Part shown: piece after piece, positions 26,745-56,149 of the stretch
How the letters are laid out: each line of letters starts with the position of its first letter
Numbering within the stretch: the stretch's first letter is position 1
NCBI GenBank assembly: GCA_026414185.1
Contig: JAOAJL010000004.1
Coordinates: 15,966-73,748, forward strand
Direction: 5' to 3'
DNA length: 57,783 nucleotides
From: Candidatus Micrarchaeota archaeon
GTDB lineage: Archaea; Micrarchaeota; Micrarchaeia; Anstonellales; Anstonellaceae
Notes under the pieces: model-generated
What the model was told of the DNA's origin: nothing
Databases searched by the model: none
Seen by the model: only the letters and a program-made list of their open reading frames with translations
Position numbers and translations under genes: made by a program

Positions 26745-26860
26745 TGTCAGCAGCAATGCGCCTTCCCGCGCGAAGCGCAGTAGAAGCAGCATCGTGGGAG
26801 GGCTTAACTTCCGAGTTCGGAATGGGTTCGGGTGTTTCCCCTCCCCTATGGCCGCTGACA
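26745..26860 (-). rRNA. rrf: 5S rRNA, stand-alone
   Basis: Minus strand TGTCAGCGGCCATAGGGGAGGGGAAACACCCGAACCCATTCCGAACTCGGAAGTTAAGCCC...GCTGCTGACA; ends pair to form helix I; conserved CCGAAC. Confidence 0.96.
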
Positions 26861-28864: not shown

Positions 28865-29674
28865 ATGGTGGATGCGAAGTATTTTGCTTACGGTGCAGGT
28901 GCGCTTGCCCTCTTGGGCGCGATGGGCTGCTTTGTGGGGCAGGGCAATGCGATAGTTTCGTTCATATCCGGCCTGCTTTGCCTCATAGGAGCCATAGGCG
29001 CGGTGGCGCTTTTCAAATACGGCTATCTTCTCATCCCCCTTCTTACCCAGAGAGCGAAGATAGTGCAGATAATGGAGGGCGGCTACGAGATTCCGCCTTC
29101 AAATGACGTCATTCTCAAAAATGTCGGCGGGGTTTATTACGCAAGCAAATTCTTGGGGGTCAGGATTTTTGAGTCCGCCTCAGAAAAATCAGTGGAGGAA
29201 AACGTGGTCTATTCGGAATACTTTGAGCGCGCCATATCATCAGTAAAATACGTGACGAAGTTCGCCATAATGGTCTACATGAAGGACATAACGGACTACC
29301 GCAACCGGATAGAGACCAAGCATGCTGAGGCGCAGCTTAGGCTTGCGCGCGAGAGGGACAAGCCGGACCCTGATGTGCTCAAGCTTGACAGGTTTGAAAA
29401 GGAGGTTGCAATGTGGGAGGCGCAGATAAACAAGCTCACCCGCGGGATAAAGCCGATGGGCTGCGTCTCATACGTGATGACGACTGCTGTGGGCGTCAGC
29501 AAGGAAGCGGCGATGGCAGCCGCAACTGCGCAGGCAAATGAGCTGAAAGCCACCATCGCCAATGCGCTCAATGTCCAGGTTGAGCTGCTCAGCGGCGATG
29601 AGATGCTGCGCTGCTTCCAGTGGGAAACCGCCATTCCGCCCACGCCGCAGGAGCTTGAGCAGGCGCTGCTGTAG
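28865..29674 (+). CDS. Two-TM protein with TraC/VirB4 N-terminal-like domain
   Basis: N-terminal TM hairpin; VILKNVGGVYYASKFLGV..SVEENVVYSEYFERAISSV..DITDYRNRI; ends ANELKATIANALNVQVELLSGDEML. Confidence 0.6.
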   Translation: MVDAKYFAYGAGALALLGAMGCFVGQGNAIVSFISGLLCLIGAIGAVALFKYGYLLIPLLTQRAKIVQIMEGGYEIPPSNDVILKNVGGVYYASKFLGVRIFESASEKSVEENVVYSEYFERAISSVKYVTKFAIMVYMKDITDYRNRIETKHAEAQLRLARERDKPDPDVLKLDRFEKEVAMWEAQINKLTRGIKPMGCVSYVMTTAVGVSKEAAMAAATAQANELKATIANALNVQVELLSGDEMLRCFQWETAIPPTPQELEQALL

Positions 29675-29720: not shown

Positions 29721-31331
29721 ATGGGAAGGCTGAAGCTTTCGGAGCTTGACAACATTGACCTTGCGAGGCGCAACATATTCGTCAGACCGCCCGAGCCGCC
29801 GGATGACGTGCTGATGTCCGACCCGACAAACTCAATCTACATCGGAAGGACAAAGATATTCCACGTCCCGTTTTACTGGACCTATCAGAAGACCACCAAC
29901 CCGCATATCTGCGTGGTGGGGATAACGGGTTCTGGGAAATCCTACTTTGTGAAAACCTTCCTCACCCGAGCAAGCTATGTGTGGGGGACAAACGCGTTCA
30001 TAATAGACTGGGCTGGGGAGTACAAGGACTGGGTGAAGCAGGTGGGTGGAAAGGTCATCTCATTGGGACGAGGCTCTTCAATCAACCTGCTTGACACGGC
30101 TGGCATGAAGCCCAATGACCGAATAAAGCAGGTTATGAGGACCCTGGACATGCTGACGGACATAGGGCGCTACCCAGAGCAGCGCCGCCTGACCGAGCTT
30201 GCTATTGAAAAGGCGTATGTCAACAACAAATTCAAGCTTGACTCAAAACTCCAGGTTGACGGGCTGGGAAGGCCGCTGCGCCCGCCCACCCTCAAAGACG
30301 TCCAGAAGATACTTGAGGACATGAGCGAGGCTGGAACCTATGAGTTCCCCGCCGAGCTTGAAAATGCGATTTACCGCATAAGGCAGTTCACACGCGAAGG
30401 CGAGGACTTCTTCGCCCAGCAATCCACCATAGACCTTGAAAAGCTGACCAAGGCAGGGCTTGTGGACCTTGACATCTCCGGCCTTCCAGATGAGACTTTC
30501 AGGGGGCTTGCGGCGCTTTCCATGCTCCAGTTCATAAAGGAGAAGATGAGGGAGGAGGGCTGGTCCTCAACAAAAGGGCTCAAGCTTCTTGTAGTGCTTG
30601 ACGAAGCCTGGAAGGTTGCCAAAGACGACAATTCCGATGCGGTGATGATTGTGCGCGAGGGAAGGAAATACCAGTTCGGGCTTATTGTGGCGTCGCAGAA
30701 CCCAACGGACATCTCTGAGGCGATTTTCTCAAACGTGGGAACCACCTTCATCCTGCGCGTGAAGTTTGAGAGGTTTTTGGACTATCTGCAGTCCACGCTG
30801 AATTTCTCCGACTACATGAGGGAGGGCATCGCCAAGCTTGGAGTCGGACAGGCGGCGGTGAACATGGCTTTCCAGACAAATGTGGATTTTCCGGAAACGT
30901 TCTTGCTTGAGAAGATAGACGGAGAGGAGCCGATGCAGGAGTTCTTCCTTGACTTGGACAAGGTGCTGACGAAAGAGGAGCTTGCCATGGAGGGCGCTGT
31001 GCGCTCGGCAAGCTTTGAAAAAGACGAGCTCAAAAAGAAGCTGAGAAGCTATGGCATGGGGGAGGAGCAGTCGGATGAGATAGTCGGGCTGTTTGCAAAG
31101 AAAGGAAGGCGGATGGAAATCTCCGCCTTTGTGGTGCTGCTTTCGCGCTATGGCATAGCCCGCGTGAATATCTCAAGCTTCCTGAAAGATTTGGGACTTG
31201 ACGACAACTTGGTGATAAACGTGCTTGCGAAGGCAGATGAGCTTGAATTGGAGCTTTCCGATACGGACATAACGGAATACATACTGCAGGCAGAGGCTGC
31301 TGCGGCTGGGCAGGCGGAAGGCGCCTCTTGA
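29721..31331 (+). CDS. VirB4/HerA/TraG-like (DUF87) P-loop ATPase with helical C-terminal domain, 536 aa
   Basis: Walker A GITGSGKS, IIDWAGEY, Walker B VVLDEAW, REGRKYQFGLIVASQNP; start moved from 29562 to ATG 29721. Confidence 0.88.
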   Translation: MGRLKLSELDNIDLARRNIFVRPPEPPDDVLMSDPTNSIYIGRTKIFHVPFYWTYQKTTNPHICVVGITGSGKSYFVKTFLTRASYVWGTNAFIIDWAGEYKDWVKQVGGKVISLGRGSSINLLDTAGMKPNDRIKQVMRTLDMLTDIGRYPEQRRLTELAIEKAYVNNKFKLDSKLQVDGLGRPLRPPTLKDVQKILEDMSEAGTYEFPAELENAIYRIRQFTREGEDFFAQQSTIDLEKLTKAGLVDLDISGLPDETFRGLAALSMLQFIKEKMREEGWSSTKGLKLLVVLDEAWKVAKDDNSDAVMIVREGRKYQFGLIVASQNPTDISEAIFSNVGTTFILRVKFERFLDYLQSTLNFSDYMREGIAKLGVGQAAVNMAFQTNVDFPETFLLEKIDGEEPMQEFFLDLDKVLTKEELAMEGAVRSASFEKDELKKKLRSYGMGEEQSDEIVGLFAKKGRRMEISAFVVLLSRYGIARVNISSFLKDLGLDDNLVINVLAKADELELELSDTDITEYILQAEAAAAGQAEGAS

Positions 31332-31356
31332 AAAACCAAAAACAGCGGTGGAAGGA

Positions 31357-31656
31357 ATGGCAAAGACGCTTTTCTTTGAAAAGGAGGAGCTTGGGCGCAA
31401 GCTGCGCACCTGCGGCTTGGATGAGCTGCATGTCGCAGAAATCAGCAGGGTATTTGAGAAAAACAACAAGCACATAGATGTGGTGAGCTTTGTCATCATG
31501 CTTGAGCGGTATGGGGTGCAGAGGGCGGACATCTCCTCTTTTTTGCACGACATCGGGGTGGACGAGCCCACGCTCATCAACATATTCTCAAAGGCGGACT
31601 TCACAAGGCTTGGCATGGGAAACCGGGAGATTACGCAGGTTGTGTTGGCTGACTGA
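31357..31656 (+). CDS. Stand-alone paralogue of the ATPase C-terminal domain, 99 aa
   Basis: 34/75 identical, ungapped, to the ATPase segment FEKDEL...KAD (manual count). Confidence 0.88.
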   Translation: MAKTLFFEKEELGRKLRTCGLDELHVAEISRVFEKNNKHIDVVSFVIMLERYGVQRADISSFLHDIGVDEPTLINIFSKADFTRLGMGNREITQVVLAD

Positions 31657-31681: not shown

Positions 31682-32086
31682 ATGGCGAAGGTCTGTATAA
31701 TATGCGAAAAGGAGACGGATGGCAGCGCGGTGGCGGATGACTTTGTCATCCGGACAATAAGGGCTGTCAAGCAGAGGTTCGGGATTGCGAAGAACAACAT
31801 CCTTGTGGTCTGCTCCTCATGCATGGAGGAGCACCGCAAAAGGCGCGAAAGGTATGAGCGGAACCTTGTGATGCACGTCTTAGTTGCCGCAATCATCCTC
31901 TTTGCCTTTGTGCTTTTGCCGGTTTTCACCACCGGCTTTTCGGTCTCGGCGCTGGTTCTGGGCATCCTGCTTGCCGCAATCATCATCGGGCTTTCAATAT
32001 TCTCCCATCATCCCAAGCTTGCGCCCGAAACGCAAAAGCCCAAGCCCGAGGAAAAGAAAGGACAGCGCGGCAGGAAAAGGAAGTGA
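31682..32086 (+). CDS. Zn-finger (CxxC...CxxC) two-TM membrane protein with basic tail
   Basis: CIICEK and CSSCMEE, two hydrophobic helices, KKGQRGRKRK C-terminus. Confidence 0.78.
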   Translation: MAKVCIICEKETDGSAVADDFVIRTIRAVKQRFGIAKNNILVVCSSCMEEHRKRRERYERNLVMHVLVAAIILFAFVLLPVFTTGFSVSALVLGILLAAIIIGLSIFSHHPKLAPETQKPKPEEKKGQRGRKRK

Positions 32087-32092
32087 TTTTGA

Positions 32093-32881
32093 ATGGTGGA
32101 AATAAAGCTGCCTGAGGGCATGAGGCAGGCGGGGGGGCAAAAGCCGCCCCCTGCCCCACCGCAGCCGCAACCTACATCCCCCATTGTTGGCGGGTTTCGC
32201 ATAGCGGCAAAAAGAAAATGCACCATTGAGGAGCTTTCGCAGAGGTTTGCGGAGCTTTCCTTCCTTCAGCTGACCGTTGAAAAGGATGCGCTTGCCGCGC
32301 TCAACGTGGAGTCGCGCGACATCCAGAAAAACCCCTATCTTTTTTCAATCATCTATTTCAAGCCCGATTGCGTTGAGGCGCTTTATACCTGCCTGCCAAA
32401 CATGAGCCCGAAAAAGCGCCGCATAGACGTGCTGCGCCAGTTCCTCAACCTTCTGACGATAGTGGAGGACTGCTACCAAGTGGAGATGAAGCAGATTTAC
32501 CAGCTTCTTGAAGCCTCAGTGGCGGACATGACTGAATATGTTTCGCTTGACTACGACCGGCTTTTTTCCCTCTATGACAATCTCAAAAGCGAGGTTGCAG
32601 CTCTGCAAAAGAAGGTAAAGGACCTCACGGATGGAAACGCTGCGCTTTCAAAAGAAAACTACGAGCTGAAAAGCAAAAATGACGAGCTTGTGCTTAAAAT
32701 CCGCGGGCTTGAAACCTTCAGCGACTCGGTGCTTGCCCTAAAAATACAGGAGTGGCTTTCAGAACACAAGGGCGAGATAAACATAGCCGATTTCTCCAAG
32801 GTTTACAACGTGCCTGAAACGCGCGTTGAGCAGATGCTCAACAAGCTTGTGACAGAGGGTTATCTTGAAATTAAGGGCTGA
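32093..32881 (+). CDS. Hypothetical protein: Pro-rich N-terminus, alpha/beta domain, coiled coil, C-terminal winged-helix-like domain
   Basis: Heptad-rich LKSEVAALQKKVKDLTDGNAALSKENYELK; C-terminal EINIADFSKVYNVPETRVEQMLNKLVTEGYL. Confidence 0.75.
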   Translation: MVEIKLPEGMRQAGGQKPPPAPPQPQPTSPIVGGFRIAAKRKCTIEELSQRFAELSFLQLTVEKDALAALNVESRDIQKNPYLFSIIYFKPDCVEALYTCLPNMSPKKRRIDVLRQFLNLLTIVEDCYQVEMKQIYQLLEASVADMTEYVSLDYDRLFSLYDNLKSEVAALQKKVKDLTDGNAALSKENYELKSKNDELVLKIRGLETFSDSVLALKIQEWLSEHKGEINIADFSKVYNVPETRVEQMLNKLVTEGYLEIKG

Positions 32882-32904: not shown

Positions 32905-35505
32905 ATGGCTGAGGAAAGAGGCGGGCTTGCCCGGCTGAAAATAGCAAAAAAGGCATATGTCTTTGATGTGCGCAAGAAGTATTCTTTGAGCAGAACCTTC
33001 CAGCTGAAAAAAAGCCCCCAAACCCCGCAGGAGCAGCTGAAAGAAGCCGTCGGCAGCCTTTTTGAAAGAAAGAAAAAGCCGGAAGGGCAGCAGGAGGCTG
33101 CGCAGCCCGTTTCGCCTTCCGTTTCACCCCCCGATGCGGTTGCCTCTGCCATAAAAACAGCCGCCTTTGTCGCACTGCTGTTCGTTGTCGGAGGGTTCAT
33201 TTTTTTGTGGATGCAGCTTTCTGCGGCAGGCACGGGCGGCTCCCCGCCCCAAAGACCTGAAGTGTTCTCTGGCTCCTACGACTACTTTGTTTCTGATGCG
33301 GAAATCCTATCAGTGGCGCAGGAGGACAGGATAGGGCGCTCCTTTTTTTTGCTTGTTGAATATTGGGCTGAAAACCTAAGCAGCCTCAATTTCAGCGCTT
33401 CCATCTACCCGACGGCGCCGACGACCCAGGTCTTCCTTCTTGACTATGCGCGGGAAGGCGACGACTGCTACCCTGCCTTCAGGAAGAGCCTTTTTGAGGG
33501 GATGCCGCAGTCAGGCTTTGCGATAAGCGAAATTGAGGTATGGGAGCTTGCCGCGCTGCCGGAAGGGGCGACTGTGATTGTCCCGACCGGATATCTGCCG
33601 CAGGAACTTTTGGGAATCGGCTCAAACTTTGATTATGCGGGGCTTTTGAACAGGGGCGTGAACATAATCTACATCGGCTACCCCTTTGACAGCCTTGCGA
33701 TAGACAGGAGAGGCCAGACTGTTCCGGTGAAGCACTACGCGCTTTCATTTACGAAGGTGCGCGCAGACTCCACGGATGGCTTTCGGCTCTATGACCCGCA
33801 GTATGTCGCAAGCCCGCAGGCGACAGGGGATAGCCGTCTTTTTTCAGGGCATCAGCTTTACGGCTCTGTCTCAGTGGTAAAGGGCGCCAAGGGGGCGATG
33901 CTTTTTTTGCCGCAGACGCTTGATGGCGGATGGCGCGGGGACGGGAAGGCGGCTGCCGAGGACATCATAAGGCTTGTCCGCGAAGCCCTTTGGATGAGCC
34001 CTCTTGCGCAGACGACGCTTCCGGCTGAAGTTGTCGGGGAAGGGAAGGAGCGCAGGATTTCCATCTTCAGCCCGCCTTTTGATGCGGATGGAGGCTATGT
34101 TGAACTTTCCGCGGATGCCAAGGACATGAACGGGATTGGAAGAAGAGGCGTCCAGACCGTAAAGCTATTCAAGACCCAGCGGGGGGAGATGATTCCGCGC
34201 GACCCAAAGACAGTTCCGTTTTACCTCTCAGGGCAGAAGACGAGACTGAACATAAAGCTTGCAGAGCCAACATCCACCCCTGTTGAGCTTTTCATAAGGA
34301 TGTACAAGGATGGAAACCTCTTGCAGGAAGAGAAGCTGGAGCTTGGGCTTACAAATCCGCAGACTGAAAAACCCAAGGATTTCCAGGTCAACGCAGAGCC
34401 AGGAAGATATGTTGTTCATGTGGAGGACAGGGCAGGCAGGGTTTATGCGGCTTGCCAGCTTGACGTCATAGACTTGGACATTGAGCTTTTGGACAGGCCG
34501 GACTGGGGCAGGGGGAAATTCAGGTTTTTCCTTTCTGCCGCAGGGGAGACTGTTTCGCCGCGTTTCTTGACGGTTTCCCTTGACGGGAAGGGGGAGAAGA
34601 AGTATTCGCCAGGCGATTATACCTACGAGGACAAAAAGACGCTTTTGCTCTATGAGCATCCCTATGAGATAAAGCCTGGGAACCACACATTCACTTTCAG
34701 CGCAGGAGAATGGAGCAAGCAGTTTGTCGCAACATACAGACCATCAAGAAACTTTTGGGACAACCCCCTTGTGCTATTCCTCGGCTTCATCTCGCTGGCT
34801 GTCTTTGGCATAGGCTACTTCCTGCGCAAGCCTGAAAAGATGCGCTACGGGCTGGACATACCGGACTTTCCTCCTCTCTCAACCATAAAAATACCGGTCA
34901 AAAGGCAGACTGTCTTGGATATCTTTGAAAGCGTGAATGCAAGCTACGCATGGCAGTACATGCCGCTTAGGCTTGATGAGCTGAAAAATGGGTTCAGACG
35001 GCTTACTTATAACGGGAAGCCGATTTTGGTCGGCGACTTTAACCTTGAACGGATACTCTCCCGCCTTCGCGATGAGGGGTTGGTGAAAGAGGAGCTTGGC
35101 TACTGGGGCAAAACGCAATGGGAAAAGGAAAGCGGCAGGAGCATCAGGTACCTTGCCATGTACAGGATAATGCGCAACGTGTTTGTGAATAACGCGCTGA
35201 GGTTCTCCAAGCTCGGGGCGATGCCCGACTGTGATGTGAAAGTCATAGCTGGCAAGGACGAAATTTACTTCCATATAATGGAGCAGCCGTATGAGCCCAT
35301 AATCCACAAGGCGCTTGCCACCGCAAAGAAAGGGACAACCATGATGGTTTTCAAAAATGAAGAGGAGCGCGACTCCTTTGCCAATTCTCTGACTTCCTCC
35401 TCCAAGCTTGCGGTTGCCCTGAAAATGGAAATCCAAAACGGCAACATCCTCCTGGTGCAGGTGAAAAACGAGATTTCCGCCTTCCTCAAGCAGATTATAA
35501 AGTAA
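32905..35505 (+). CDS. Large two-TM membrane protein with big extracytoplasmic region and cytoplasmic C-terminal domain, 866 aa
   Basis: TM TAAFVALLFVVGGFIFLW, about 510 aa beta-rich region, TM PLVLFLGFISLAVFGIGYFL, then wHTH-like LERILSRLRDEGLVKEELGYWG. Confidence 0.8.
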   Translation: MAEERGGLARLKIAKKAYVFDVRKKYSLSRTFQLKKSPQTPQEQLKEAVGSLFERKKKPEGQQEAAQPVSPSVSPPDAVASAIKTAAFVALLFVVGGFIFLWMQLSAAGTGGSPPQRPEVFSGSYDYFVSDAEILSVAQEDRIGRSFFLLVEYWAENLSSLNFSASIYPTAPTTQVFLLDYAREGDDCYPAFRKSLFEGMPQSGFAISEIEVWELAALPEGATVIVPTGYLPQELLGIGSNFDYAGLLNRGVNIIYIGYPFDSLAIDRRGQTVPVKHYALSFTKVRADSTDGFRLYDPQYVASPQATGDSRLFSGHQLYGSVSVVKGAKGAMLFLPQTLDGGWRGDGKAAAEDIIRLVREALWMSPLAQTTLPAEVVGEGKERRISIFSPPFDADGGYVELSADAKDMNGIGRRGVQTVKLFKTQRGEMIPRDPKTVPFYLSGQKTRLNIKLAEPTSTPVELFIRMYKDGNLLQEEKLELGLTNPQTEKPKDFQVNAEPGRYVVHVEDRAGRVYAACQLDVIDLDIELLDRPDWGRGKFRFFLSAAGETVSPRFLTVSLDGKGEKKYSPGDYTYEDKKTLLLYEHPYEIKPGNHTFTFSAGEWSKQFVATYRPSRNFWDNPLVLFLGFISLAVFGIGYFLRKPEKMRYGLDIPDFPPLSTIKIPVKRQTVLDIFESVNASYAWQYMPLRLDELKNGFRRLTYNGKPILVGDFNLERILSRLRDEGLVKEELGYWGKTQWEKESGRSIRYLAMYRIMRNVFVNNALRFSKLGAMPDCDVKVIAGKDEIYFHIMEQPYEPIIHKALATAKKGTTMMVFKNEEERDSFANSLTSSSKLAVALKMEIQNGNILLVQVKNEISAFLKQIIK

Positions 35506-55815: not shown

Positions 55816-55876
55816 GCTCCCACCGGAAAAGCAAGGGGCAACAAACTATTTTAAACTGCCCCAAAGATAACTATTC

Positions 55877-56141
55877 GGCAGGATAGGCAGGGAGAGTAGG
55901 GGCCTCCCGTCCCGCAAATCCCCTTTTGGCGGTGCCGAATGTCCGGCGAAGTCATCTGAGAGGCAGCAAGGCTCGCGCTTCAAGCGTAGATGCTTTGCCT
56001 TGCCGGACGGTTCATTGTGCCAACCGGGTCAGGCCGGAAGGAGCAGCCCTACGCATTCTGTTCCGTGCTGGCAAGCACCAAAGCGGAGCGGCGGTGCGAA
56101 CCACCTTGATGCTTTTCTTTTGGCGCGCCGGAAATCCTGCC
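55877..56141 (+). ncRNA. ffs: Signal recognition particle (7S) RNA
   Basis: Helix 8 GGGTCAGGCCGGAAGGAGCAGCCC at 56026-56049; end pairing GGCAGGAT (55877) / ATCCTGCC (56134); TCCGGCG (55942) / CGCCGGA (56126); TTTTAAA 22-28 nt upstream. Confidence 0.88.
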
Positions 56142-56149
56142 ATGGAGGC

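What the first reader, a model, noticed from the sequence alone, without database searches (positions are those of the whole stretch)
31014..31656. ATPase C-terminal domain duplicated as a free-standing small protein directly downstream
The 75-aa segment FEKDEL...KAD at the end of the ATPase aligns without gaps to the 99-aa next gene (34/75 identical by manual count; shared FEK.EL..KLR..G, RYG..R..ISSFL.D.G.D, IN...KAD). This domain is not a standard VirB4/HerA part that I recognise. A free copy of a motor's docking domain suggests an adaptor, competitor/regulator or polymer-forming ring subunit.
Basis: seen in the sequence. Interest (0 to 1): 0.65.

Follow-up and report, generated by a model that had tools for sequence, protein, structure and literature searches.

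The report
Motor tail domain made free twice
In tiny symbiotic archaea (Micrarchaeota), a secretion-type motor ATPase carries a novel 95-residue tail domain that the cell apparently also needs as a free protein. Most relatives seem to make the free form from a conserved ribosome-binding site and start codon inside the motor gene, while this genome and a few others use a duplicated small gene instead.

Summary
The last ~95 residues of the VirB4/CedB-like ATPase (31002-31289) and the next 99-aa gene (31357-31656) are 40% identical without gaps (E 2e-27).

The small gene is functional. Within the genus its synonymous sites are saturated while dN/dS is 0.01-0.09.

The domain has no Pfam, PDB or BFVD relative. 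It occurs only in this Micrarchaeota operon family.

Of 80 sampled orthologous loci, 57 lack the small gene. In all 57, the codon aligned with the small protein's Met1 (or, in one, the next codon) is ATG, GTG or TTG. Every Val there is GTG. It sits behind a strong Shine-Dalgarno match to the genome's own 16S tail: mean -9.4 kcal/mol, against -3.25 at other in-frame start codons and -6.2 after synonymous resampling. A paralogous ATPase with no small gene shows the same signal.

Loci that do have the small gene (2-4 independent tandem duplications) lack this internal start.

Best reading: a free tail domain is always required. It is made either by internal initiation or from a separate gene, and probably assembles with the tethered copy, as SctQ-C does with SctQ. 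No product has been shown experimentally.

The parts
28865..29674 (+). First operon gene: two-TM protein with a VirB3/VirB4-N-like part ('B3N').
   Evidence: Conserved upstream of the ATPase in all 36 full-length loci examined, and in two tandem copies in families f10, f11, f12 and f15. An earlier scan note calls it a split VirB4 N-terminus.
29721..31331 (+). VirB4/CedB/HerA-superfamily ATPase, 536 aa. The motor core is about 29721-30990.
   Evidence: Pfam DUF87, AAA_10 and P-loop_TraG score above gathering. The best NCBIfam hits are CedD, CedB and VirB4-like but lie far below their cut-offs. PDB profile hits are HerA and VirB4. The start at MGRLKL is set by the alignment of 31 orthologues.
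30987..31001 (+). Core-to-CTD junction 'M E G A V' (ATG GAG GGC GCT GTG). It is a remnant of the ancestral internal ribosome-binding site: GGAGGG 30989-30994, then GTG 30999-31001.
   Evidence: It aligns codon for codon with the small gene's own leader GTG GAA GGA ATG GCA. The duplex energy is -8.6 kcal/mol here, but the GTG is not conserved in the other genus members.
31002..31289 (+). Tethered copy of the domain (CTD, ATPase residues 428-523). A low-complexity tail follows to 31328.
   Evidence: Domain HMM E 3e-43. It is 59-80% identical in 34 orthologous ATPases. pLDDT is 79-86 within an otherwise poor full-length model.
31347..31356 (+). Shine-Dalgarno sequence of the small gene (GGTGGAAGGA).
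   Evidence: Complementary to the genome's own 16S 3' end ...GATCACCTCCA. Duplex energy -6.4 kcal/mol.
31357..31656 (+). Free-standing copy of the domain, 99 aa.
   Evidence: 94 homologues at 69-90% identity, nearly all 98-99 aa. dN/dS 0.01-0.09 within the genus. AF2 pLDDT 81.8, six helices and two short strands.
31682..32086 (+). Zn-finger two-TM protein, the next operon gene.
   Evidence: Conserved at this position in all but one (L025) of the 36 full-length loci. It directly follows the ATPase where the small gene is absent.
32093..32881 (+). Coiled-coil protein with a C-terminal winged-helix-like end.
   Evidence: Conserved in all loci. A paralogue follows the second ATPase.
32905..35505 (+). 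Membrane protein of about 866 aa that closes the operon.
   Evidence: Conserved in all full-length loci.

Best explanation
The ~95-residue C-terminal domain (CTD) of this Micrarchaeota VirB4/CedB-like motor is a self-contained helical module of a previously undescribed family. The machine needs it in two forms: tethered to the ATPase and free.

Ancestrally, and still in most lineages, one gene gives both forms. Ribosomes read through to make ATPase-CTD. They also start at a conserved Shine-Dalgarno plus ATG/GTG/TTG site at the core-CTD junction to make free CTD.

In the window's genus, and in two to three other lineages, a tandem duplication of the CTD-coding segment turned the free form into a gene of its own. 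The duplicated segment included that internal ribosome-binding site. The internal start in the ATPase then decayed. The tethered copy evolved about twice as fast, and in the oldest case it lost its last ~17 residues. The free copy stayed close to the ancestral sequence.

Shown: paralogy, purifying selection, restricted distribution, the conserved internal SD and start, and its mutual exclusion with the small gene. Inferred: that the internal site is used for initiation. More weakly inferred: that free CTD binds the tethered CTD to complete an oligomeric module under the motor, as SctQ-C does with SctQ and FliN with FliM.
For: - **Paralogy:** 40% identity, E 2e-27.
- **Operon:** the operon (B3N, ATPase+CTD, optional small gene, Zn-finger 2TM, coiled-coil wH, large membrane protein) is conserved across the class, and 168 of 201 phylum genomes hold the domain.
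- **Fused-only ATPase-1 genes (n=57):** the codon aligned to the small protein's Met1 is ATG 32, GTG 23, TTG 1, plus one ATG at the next codon. All 23 Val are GTG, although GTG is only 30% of Val codons in these genes.
- **SD strength at that site:** mean -9.40 kcal/mol. Compare -3.25 at 965 other in-frame start codons (p 3e-33) and -6.20 +/- 0.32 after synonymous resampling (0 of 1000 reach it). It is stronger than at the true starts of the other operon genes, which average -5.9 to -8.0.
- **RNA-level signal:** 47 different hexapeptides precede the site (RRDVSV, KEAIDV, GGVDM, REGIM and others), while the upstream nucleotides keep SD-like runs such as GGAGG, GGTGA and AGGGA.
- **Paralogue ATPase-2:** it has no small gene and carries [KR]-G-[GD]-x-M = AGGTGATnnnATG in 16 of 17 loci. 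This holds even in genomes that own the ATPase-1 small gene.
- **Loci with a small gene:** the best start within -12 to +3 codons averages -2.7 kcal/mol. Overall, 73 of 74 genes without a small gene have the site, against 1 of 23 with one.
- **Natural experiment:** G130 is the only f5 genome with a separate small gene, and the only one whose junction codon is TCA. Its CTD and small protein are sisters (SH-aLRT 95).
- **Polarity:** in the ATPase tree rooted on ATPase-2 the fused-only state is basal, and the small gene is gained 4 times on the best tree.
- **Duplication footprint:** the small gene's leader V-E-G-M-A-K parallels the CTD junction M-E-G-A-V-R codon for codon.
- **Selection:** small gene pN 0.012-0.166 with pS 0.57-0.92; CTD dN is about twice as high.
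- **Precedent:** SctQ and SctQ-C (PMC4295842).
Against: - No protein, ribosome-profiling or N-terminal proteomic data exist, so internal initiation is inferred from sequence alone.
- Only 2 (well supported) to 4 independent gains of the small gene exist, so a phylogenetically corrected test cannot reach significance.
- The linker's amino-acid make-up alone already gives a moderately SD-like sequence (-6.2).
- The window's own ATPase still has GGAGGG plus GTG at the junction, so the exclusion is not perfect.
- The partner-binding mechanism has no direct support. No multimer prediction could be run, and the full-length model is poor (pLDDT 49.7).
- The free protein is mildly acidic, and its fold has no known relative that would indicate a function.
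Confidence: 0.6

Rival explanations
1. The free CTD is a regulator. It is a truncated isoform that competes with the tethered CTD for a docking site on the membrane platform or on a substrate, and so tunes motor recruitment. From my own knowledge, not read here, short isoforms from internal starts such as CheA-S or McrB-S work this way.
For: The evidence that a free form is made is the same as above. The motif ERYG[IV]xR and a few charged residues are shared by all copies, so a common ligand is possible.
Against: After duplication the two copies keep only ~40% identity, and the shared residues are mostly core hydrophobics. In f10-f12 the tethered copy lost the C-terminal ~17 residues. A competitor should keep the same surface. 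The free copy is the more constrained one, and its SD is the strongest in the operon. That suggests stoichiometric or excess structural use.
Confidence: 0.18
2. There is no internal initiation. The SD-like run and start codon at the junction are kept for protein-level reasons (a Gly/Arg/Glu-rich linker, Met as a structural residue) or for pausing. The small gene is then a lineage-specific duplicate with a new role of its own.
For: Amino-acid composition alone gives -6.2 kcal/mol. Only 2-4 independent contrasts exist. The window's own ATPase keeps an SD plus GTG despite having the small gene.
Against: All 23 Val are GTG and the one Leu is TTG. The observed SD is about 10 SD beyond synonymous resampling. 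The upstream peptide varies (47 distinct hexapeptides) while the nucleotide motif stays. The same signal evolved or persisted in paralogue ATPase-2. The start is lost exactly in the lineages with a small gene, including the recent G130 case.
Confidence: 0.12
3. The CTD is a nucleic-acid-handling module made of repeated helix-turn-helix or helix-hairpin-helix-like units. It would be analogous to the gamma domain of FtsK. The free copy would hand substrate DNA to the motor.
For: The motif G-[ILV]-x3-4-[IV]-x2-[FIL] recurs three times. There are weak sub-threshold profile hits to the (HhH)2 region of topoisomerase V (E 0.02) and a weak Foldseek hit to RecX (E 1.6). The motor belongs to a DNA-translocating superfamily.
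Against: None of these hits is significant. The free protein has a net negative charge (counted from the sequence). EF-hand proteins score equally weakly. No relaxase or other DNA-processing gene lies in the operon.
Confidence: 0.08

Closest known systems
SctQ / SctQ-C of type III secretion injectisomes (YscQ, SpaO, HrcQ), and the two-gene flagellar equivalent FliM + FliN
   Same: One gene yields the full-length protein and, from an in-frame internal start, its free C-terminal domain. The two assemble and both are required. In the related flagellar machine the same roles are split over two genes (PMC4295842; PMC8553256). Here the same alternation, internal start versus separate gene, is seen among orthologous operons.
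   Different: There is no sequence or fold relation to SPOA domains. The carrier here is the motor ATPase itself, not a C-ring or pod protein. The organisms are archaea. The products are not shown experimentally.
VirB4 / CedB / TedB ATPases of conjugation-type and archaeal DNA-import machines
   Same: P-loop motor of the same superfamily, with Pfam DUF87, AAA_10 and P-loop_TraG and best NCBIfam hits CedD, CedB and VirB4-like. It is encoded with small membrane proteins. Ced and Ted are described in PMC9905601.
   Different: Scores lie far below every curated family cut-off (75 bits against 600-700). None of the matches covers the CTD. The paper on Ced/Ted does not mention DPANN or Micrarchaeota. 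No paper held both 'CedB' and 'DPANN'.
HerA hexameric helicases, including the anti-phage HerA types
   Same: Best PDB sequence-profile hits over the RecA-like core (8xau, 4d2i, 8wiv; E 5e-12 to 3e-11).
   Different: The hits cover only core residues ~240-380. No NurA, Sir2 or Duf4297 partner gene is present. The operon context is membrane proteins.

Membership tests
VirB4/HerA/FtsK-superfamily P-loop ATPase (Pfam DUF87 PF01935, AAA_10 PF12846, P-loop_TraG PF19044) | Score above the Pfam gathering thresholds; Walker A and Walker B motifs present. | tested here: met
   DUF87 50.1 bits (cut-off 23.2), AAA_10 48.8 (27.5), P-loop_TraG 38.3 (25.8). GITGSGKS and VVLDEAW are invariant in 32 orthologues.
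CedB / CedD / VirB4 equivalogs (NCBIfam NF041017, NF053655, TIGR00929) | Whole-protein score above the curated equivalog cut-off. | tested here: not met
   75.2-75.6 bits against cut-offs of 600-700; VirB4_CagE 39.4 against 643. It is a distant relative, not a member.
SctQ-type dual-product gene (full length plus free C-terminal domain by internal initiation) | Conserved in-frame internal ribosome-binding site and start codon at the domain boundary. | tested here: met
   57 of 57 fused-only ATPase-1 genes and 16 of 17 ATPase-2 genes. SD mean -9.4 kcal/mol, beyond all 1000 synonymous resamplings.
SctQ-type dual-product gene | The short product is detected and required for assembly. | not testable with these tools
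   No proteomic or ribosome-profiling data were available.
SctQ-type dual-product gene | Homology of the free domain to SPOA/FliN (PF01052). | tested here: not met
   No Pfam hit at E <= 0.1 other than noise. No PDB fold match. The resemblance is an analogy of mechanism only.
FtsK gamma / winged-helix or HhH DNA-binding C-terminal domains | Fold or profile similarity to wHTH or (HhH)2 domains. | tested here: not met
   Best Foldseek PDB hit E 1.6 (RecX). Topoisomerase V profile hit E 0.02, NOD2_WH E 0.033. All are below significance.
EF-hand pair | Significant match to EF-hand profiles, and Ca-binding loop residues. | tested here: not met
   AIF-1 14.9 bits against a cut-off of 50. Calmodulin E 0.004 in the PDB profile search. 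Foldseek finds no EF-hand.

The most novel reading that the evidence does not exclude
Every VirB4-like motor gene of this Micrarchaeota machine, in both paralogous ATPase lineages, is a two-product gene. A conserved internal translation start makes a free copy of an otherwise unknown tail domain that co-assembles with the tethered one. Evolution has resolved this overlap into two genes at least two and probably four times, each time followed by decay of the internal start and asymmetric divergence. That would be a replicated natural experiment on escape from a one-sequence, two-roles constraint. It would also be the first case of SctQ-like isoform logic in an archaeal secretion or conjugation-type ATPase.
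Probability: 0.55. Interest if true: 0.72.

Novelty: new variant of a known kind. Interest (0 to 1): 0.6.

Why it matters
Micrarchaeota are obligate episymbionts, and how they contact their hosts and exchange material is unknown. This operon is one of their few conserved envelope machines, and I found no paper that describes it.

Showing that the motor needs its tail domain both tethered and free gives a concrete handle on the machine's architecture: a stoichiometric partner of a new fold. It also defines a new domain family.

It gives annotators a rule: the 'missing' small gene in most genomes is hidden inside the ATPase gene.

More generally, it is a clean comparative case in which an internal start and a duplicated gene are interchangeable. 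That bears on how hidden isoforms in prokaryotic genes arise and how they are resolved.

Tried and rejected
- **Fold searches:** the confident small-protein model found nothing against PDB or BFVD (best E 1.2-1.6).
- **Profile search against PDB sequences:** it gave only sub-threshold EF-hand, topoisomerase V and eIF1 hits and one designed protein. I rejected these as evidence of function.
- **Full-length ATPase model:** too poor (pLDDT 49.7) to say how the CTD sits on the core. I did not use it for a fold search.
- **Genome-wide SD test:** scoring the 'first start of long ORFs' was too crude (24% against 15% at <= -6 kcal/mol). I replaced it with homology-defined starts of the operon genes.
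- **Independent-contrast test:** underpowered, with 2-4 pairs.
- **Apparent free-standing ATPase-2-type small proteins in metagenomes (P0153, P0142):** they sit on 869- and 528-nt contigs and are contig-end or fragment calls, not evidence of separate genes.
- **Recent non-functional duplication:** rejected because of saturated synonymous sites with low dN.
- **One ancient duplication followed by many losses:** disfavoured. The outgroup and the basal lineages are fused-only. The G130 copies are sisters, and the genus's small protein nests among fused CTDs of its own family.

Full report
**What is there**

The window is archaeal: it holds an archaeal SRP RNA and a 5S rRNA. Homologues are labelled Micrarchaeota or Anstonellaceae.

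The ORF 29721-31331 encodes a 536-aa P-loop ATPase of the VirB4/CedB/HerA superfamily. Pfam DUF87, AAA_10 and P-loop_TraG score above gathering. The best NCBIfam hits are CedD, CedB and VirB4-like, but they reach 75 bits against cut-offs of 600-700. PDB profile hits are HerA and VirB4 cores only.

Its last ~95 structured residues (31002-31289) align without gaps to the next gene (31357-31656, 99 aa). The alignment has 38/95 identities, E 2e-27.

The small gene has its own Shine-Dalgarno, GGTGGAAGGA, directly before the ATG.

**The domain**

- AlphaFold2 on a mixed alignment gives a confident model: pLDDT 81.8, six helices and two short strands.
- The CTD has the same element order and is the only confident part of the full-length model.
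- Neither PDB nor BFVD holds a similar fold (best E 1.2-1.6).
- Pfam, NCBIfam and PDB sequence profiles give only sub-threshold noise.
- A profile search of 1.84 billion representative proteins finds only 82 clusters. They are ~100-aa proteins, the C-termini of ~480-545-aa ATPases, a few intein-bearing ATPases, and some spurious EF-hand repeat proteins.
- So this is an undescribed domain tied to one machine.

**Conservation and selection**

- The small protein has 94 close homologues at 69-90% identity, nearly all 98-99 aa.
- The CTD is 59-80% identical in 34 orthologous ATPases.
- Among five genomes of the window's genus, the small gene shows pN 0.012-0.166 while pS is 0.57-0.92. Where dS can be estimated, dN/dS is 0.01-0.09.
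- The CTD has about twice the dN of the small gene, and the motor core about half.
- This rules out a recent, decaying duplicate.

**Distribution**

The domain profile hits 168 of 201 genomes sampled across the phylum. I fetched 36 full loci and 60 short ones and annotated them with the window's proteins.

The operon is conserved across the class. Its order is: B3N, ATPase+CTD, the small gene where present, Zn-finger 2TM, coiled-coil wH, and a large membrane protein.

57 of 80 sampled ATPase-1 loci have no small gene. There the ATPase stop is followed directly by the Zn-finger gene (for example L004). Their CTD is much closer to the window's small protein than the window's own CTD is: 60% against 35-40% identity.

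The small gene occurs in four places:
- the window's genus (g1);
- genus g5 of the same family;
- the clade of families f10, f11 and f12;
- one genome of family f5 (G130).

The window's genome also holds a paralogous ATPase-2 with the same CTD. A coiled-coil paralogue follows it, and it has no small gene.

**The key result**

In every fused-only ATPase-1 gene, the codon aligned with the small protein's Met1 is a start codon. The counts are ATG 32, GTG 23 and TTG 1, plus one ATG shifted by a codon.

All 23 valines there are GTG, although GTG is only 30% of Val codons in these genes.

Four to nine bases upstream lies a match to GGAGGTGATC. That is the complement of the genome's own 16S 3' end...GATCACCTCCA. 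Mean duplex energies compare as follows:

| Site | Mean duplex energy (kcal/mol) |
|---|---|
| Internal site, fused-only ATPase-1 (n=57) | -9.40 |
| 965 other in-frame start codons in the same genes | -3.25 (Mann-Whitney p 3e-33) |
| Six preceding codons resampled synonymously | -6.20 +/- 0.32 (0 of 1000 reach the observed value) |
| Homology-defined starts of the other operon genes | -5.9 to -8.0 |
| Best site in a random 25-codon window inside the ATPase core | -3.96 |

The peptide before the site differs widely: 47 distinct hexapeptides occur, such as RRDVSV, KEAIDV, GGVDM and REGIM. The nucleotides keep SD-like runs such as GGAGG, GGTGA and AGGGA. That points to selection on the RNA.

ATPase-2 genes show [KR]-G-[GD]-x-M, that is AGGTGATnnnATG, in 16 of 17 loci, with energies of -7.3 to -12.6. 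This includes genomes that own the ATPase-1 small gene, so each motor appears to need its cognate free domain.

ATPase-length hits among the metagenome-wide representatives also carry Met at the junction.

**Mutual exclusion**

In ATPases that are followed by a small gene, the junction codon is P, Q, K, S, I or T. The best start codon within -12 to +3 codons averages only -2.7 kcal/mol.

Overall, 73 of 74 genes without a small gene have the site, against 1 of 23 with one (Fisher p 1.5e-19). These counts are not phylogenetically independent. Only 2 well-supported contrasts, or 4 on the best tree, exist.

The single exception is the window itself, with GGAGGG 30989-30994 and GTG 30999-31001. This is not conserved in its genus.

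The clearest case is G130. It is the only f5 genome with a separate small gene, which has its own SD, and the only one whose junction codon is TCA.

**History**

The ATPase tree rooted on ATPase-2 places fused-only lineages at the base. It needs four gains of the small gene, of which two are forced by well-supported branches.

In the domain tree:
- G130's CTD and small protein are sisters (SH-aLRT 95), and the small copy has the shorter branch;
- the window genus's small proteins nest among the fused CTDs of their own family;
- the CTDs of g1 and g5 form a long-branch clade (99).

The small gene's leader, GTG GAA GGA ATG GCA AAG (V E G M A K), parallels the CTD junction, ATG GAG GGC GCT GTG CGC (M E G A V R). 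So the tandem duplication copied the internal ribosome-binding site, which became the new gene's SD.

In the oldest duplication (f10-f12), the tethered copy has also lost the last ~17 residues that the free copy keeps.

**Mechanism**

Shown:
- paralogy;
- constraint on both copies;
- a conserved internal SD and start;
- its alternation with a separate gene.

Inferred, about 70% likely: the internal site is used, so a free CTD is always made.

Inferred more weakly, about 40-45% likely: the free CTD pairs with the tethered CTD to complete an oligomeric module beneath the motor. This fits three observations:
- the free copy is the more constrained one;
- the shared positions are mainly core residues, so surfaces diverged after duplication, as expected when a homotypic interface becomes heterotypic;
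- the internal SD is the strongest in the operon.

The documented precedent is SctQ and SctQ-C. The short product of an internal start is required for assembly, and FliM plus FliN are the two-gene version (PMC4295842; PMC8553256).

Rivals are a competitive regulator, a relic signal with no initiation, and a nucleic-acid-binding module. They are weighed in their own sections.

**Literature**

- No paper held both 'CedB' and 'DPANN'.
- The three papers that hold both 'Micrarchaeota' and 'VirB4' mention them only in passing, judging by titles and term counts.
- The Ced/Ted paper does not mention DPANN.
- Earlier notes of this scan describe the operon and its split VirB4-like motor. I confirmed the operon's conservation here.
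- Other scan notes report internal SD plus ATG at fusion junctions in unrelated systems. These are analogies only.

**Verdict**

The finding is real and more interesting than a simple duplication. The principle is known from type III secretion. The domain, the carrier (the motor ATPase), the archaeal setting and the repeated resolution into two genes are new. Function and initiation remain untested.

Noticed in passing
L003 298-2665 (own genome, contig C11:87923-90290): A second, paralogous ATPase (511 aa, 50% identical in the core) has the same C-terminal domain. A paralogue of the coiled-coil/winged-helix gene follows it directly. It has no B3N, Zn-finger or large membrane gene beside it. 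Orthologues occur in many genomes of the order.
   Followed up: partly
L008 4285-7428 and L038 1166-4330; proteins P0137, P0138: Some orthologous ATPases are ~1050-1200 aa because they carry an intein with a LAGLIDADG endonuclease inside the P-loop domain (Pfam Intein_splicing, LAGLIDADG_3).
   Followed up: partly
L008-L012, L021, L024-L035: In families f10, f11, f12 and f15 the first operon gene (B3N, two-TM VirB3/VirB4-N-like) is present as two tandem paralogues.
   Followed up: no
window 30987-31001: The window's own ATPase keeps GGAGGG followed after 4 nt by an in-frame GTG at the core-CTD junction (duplex -8.6 kcal/mol), although a separate small gene exists. Other genomes of the genus lack the GTG, so it may be a relic or a still-used weak internal start.
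   Followed up: partly
L008-L012 and L024-L035, CTD ends: Where the duplication is old (f10-f12), the tethered CTD stops ~17 residues earlier than the free copy. It lacks the segment equivalent to ADFTRLGMGNREITQVVLA, which is also the least confident part of the AF2 model. This is possibly an interaction tail needed only once per complex.
   Followed up: no
window 26745-26859 (-) and 55876-56142 (+): A solitary 5S rRNA gene lies about 2 kb upstream of the operon, and the archaeal SRP RNA lies about 20 kb downstream. The genome's 16S gene is on another contig (C4).
   Followed up: no
L102 19-324; L103 172-483: On short metagenome contigs, gene callers start a ~100-aa 'gene' exactly at the internal Met of ATPase-2-type CTDs. 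These entries in protein databases are fragment artefacts, not separate genes.
   Followed up: yes
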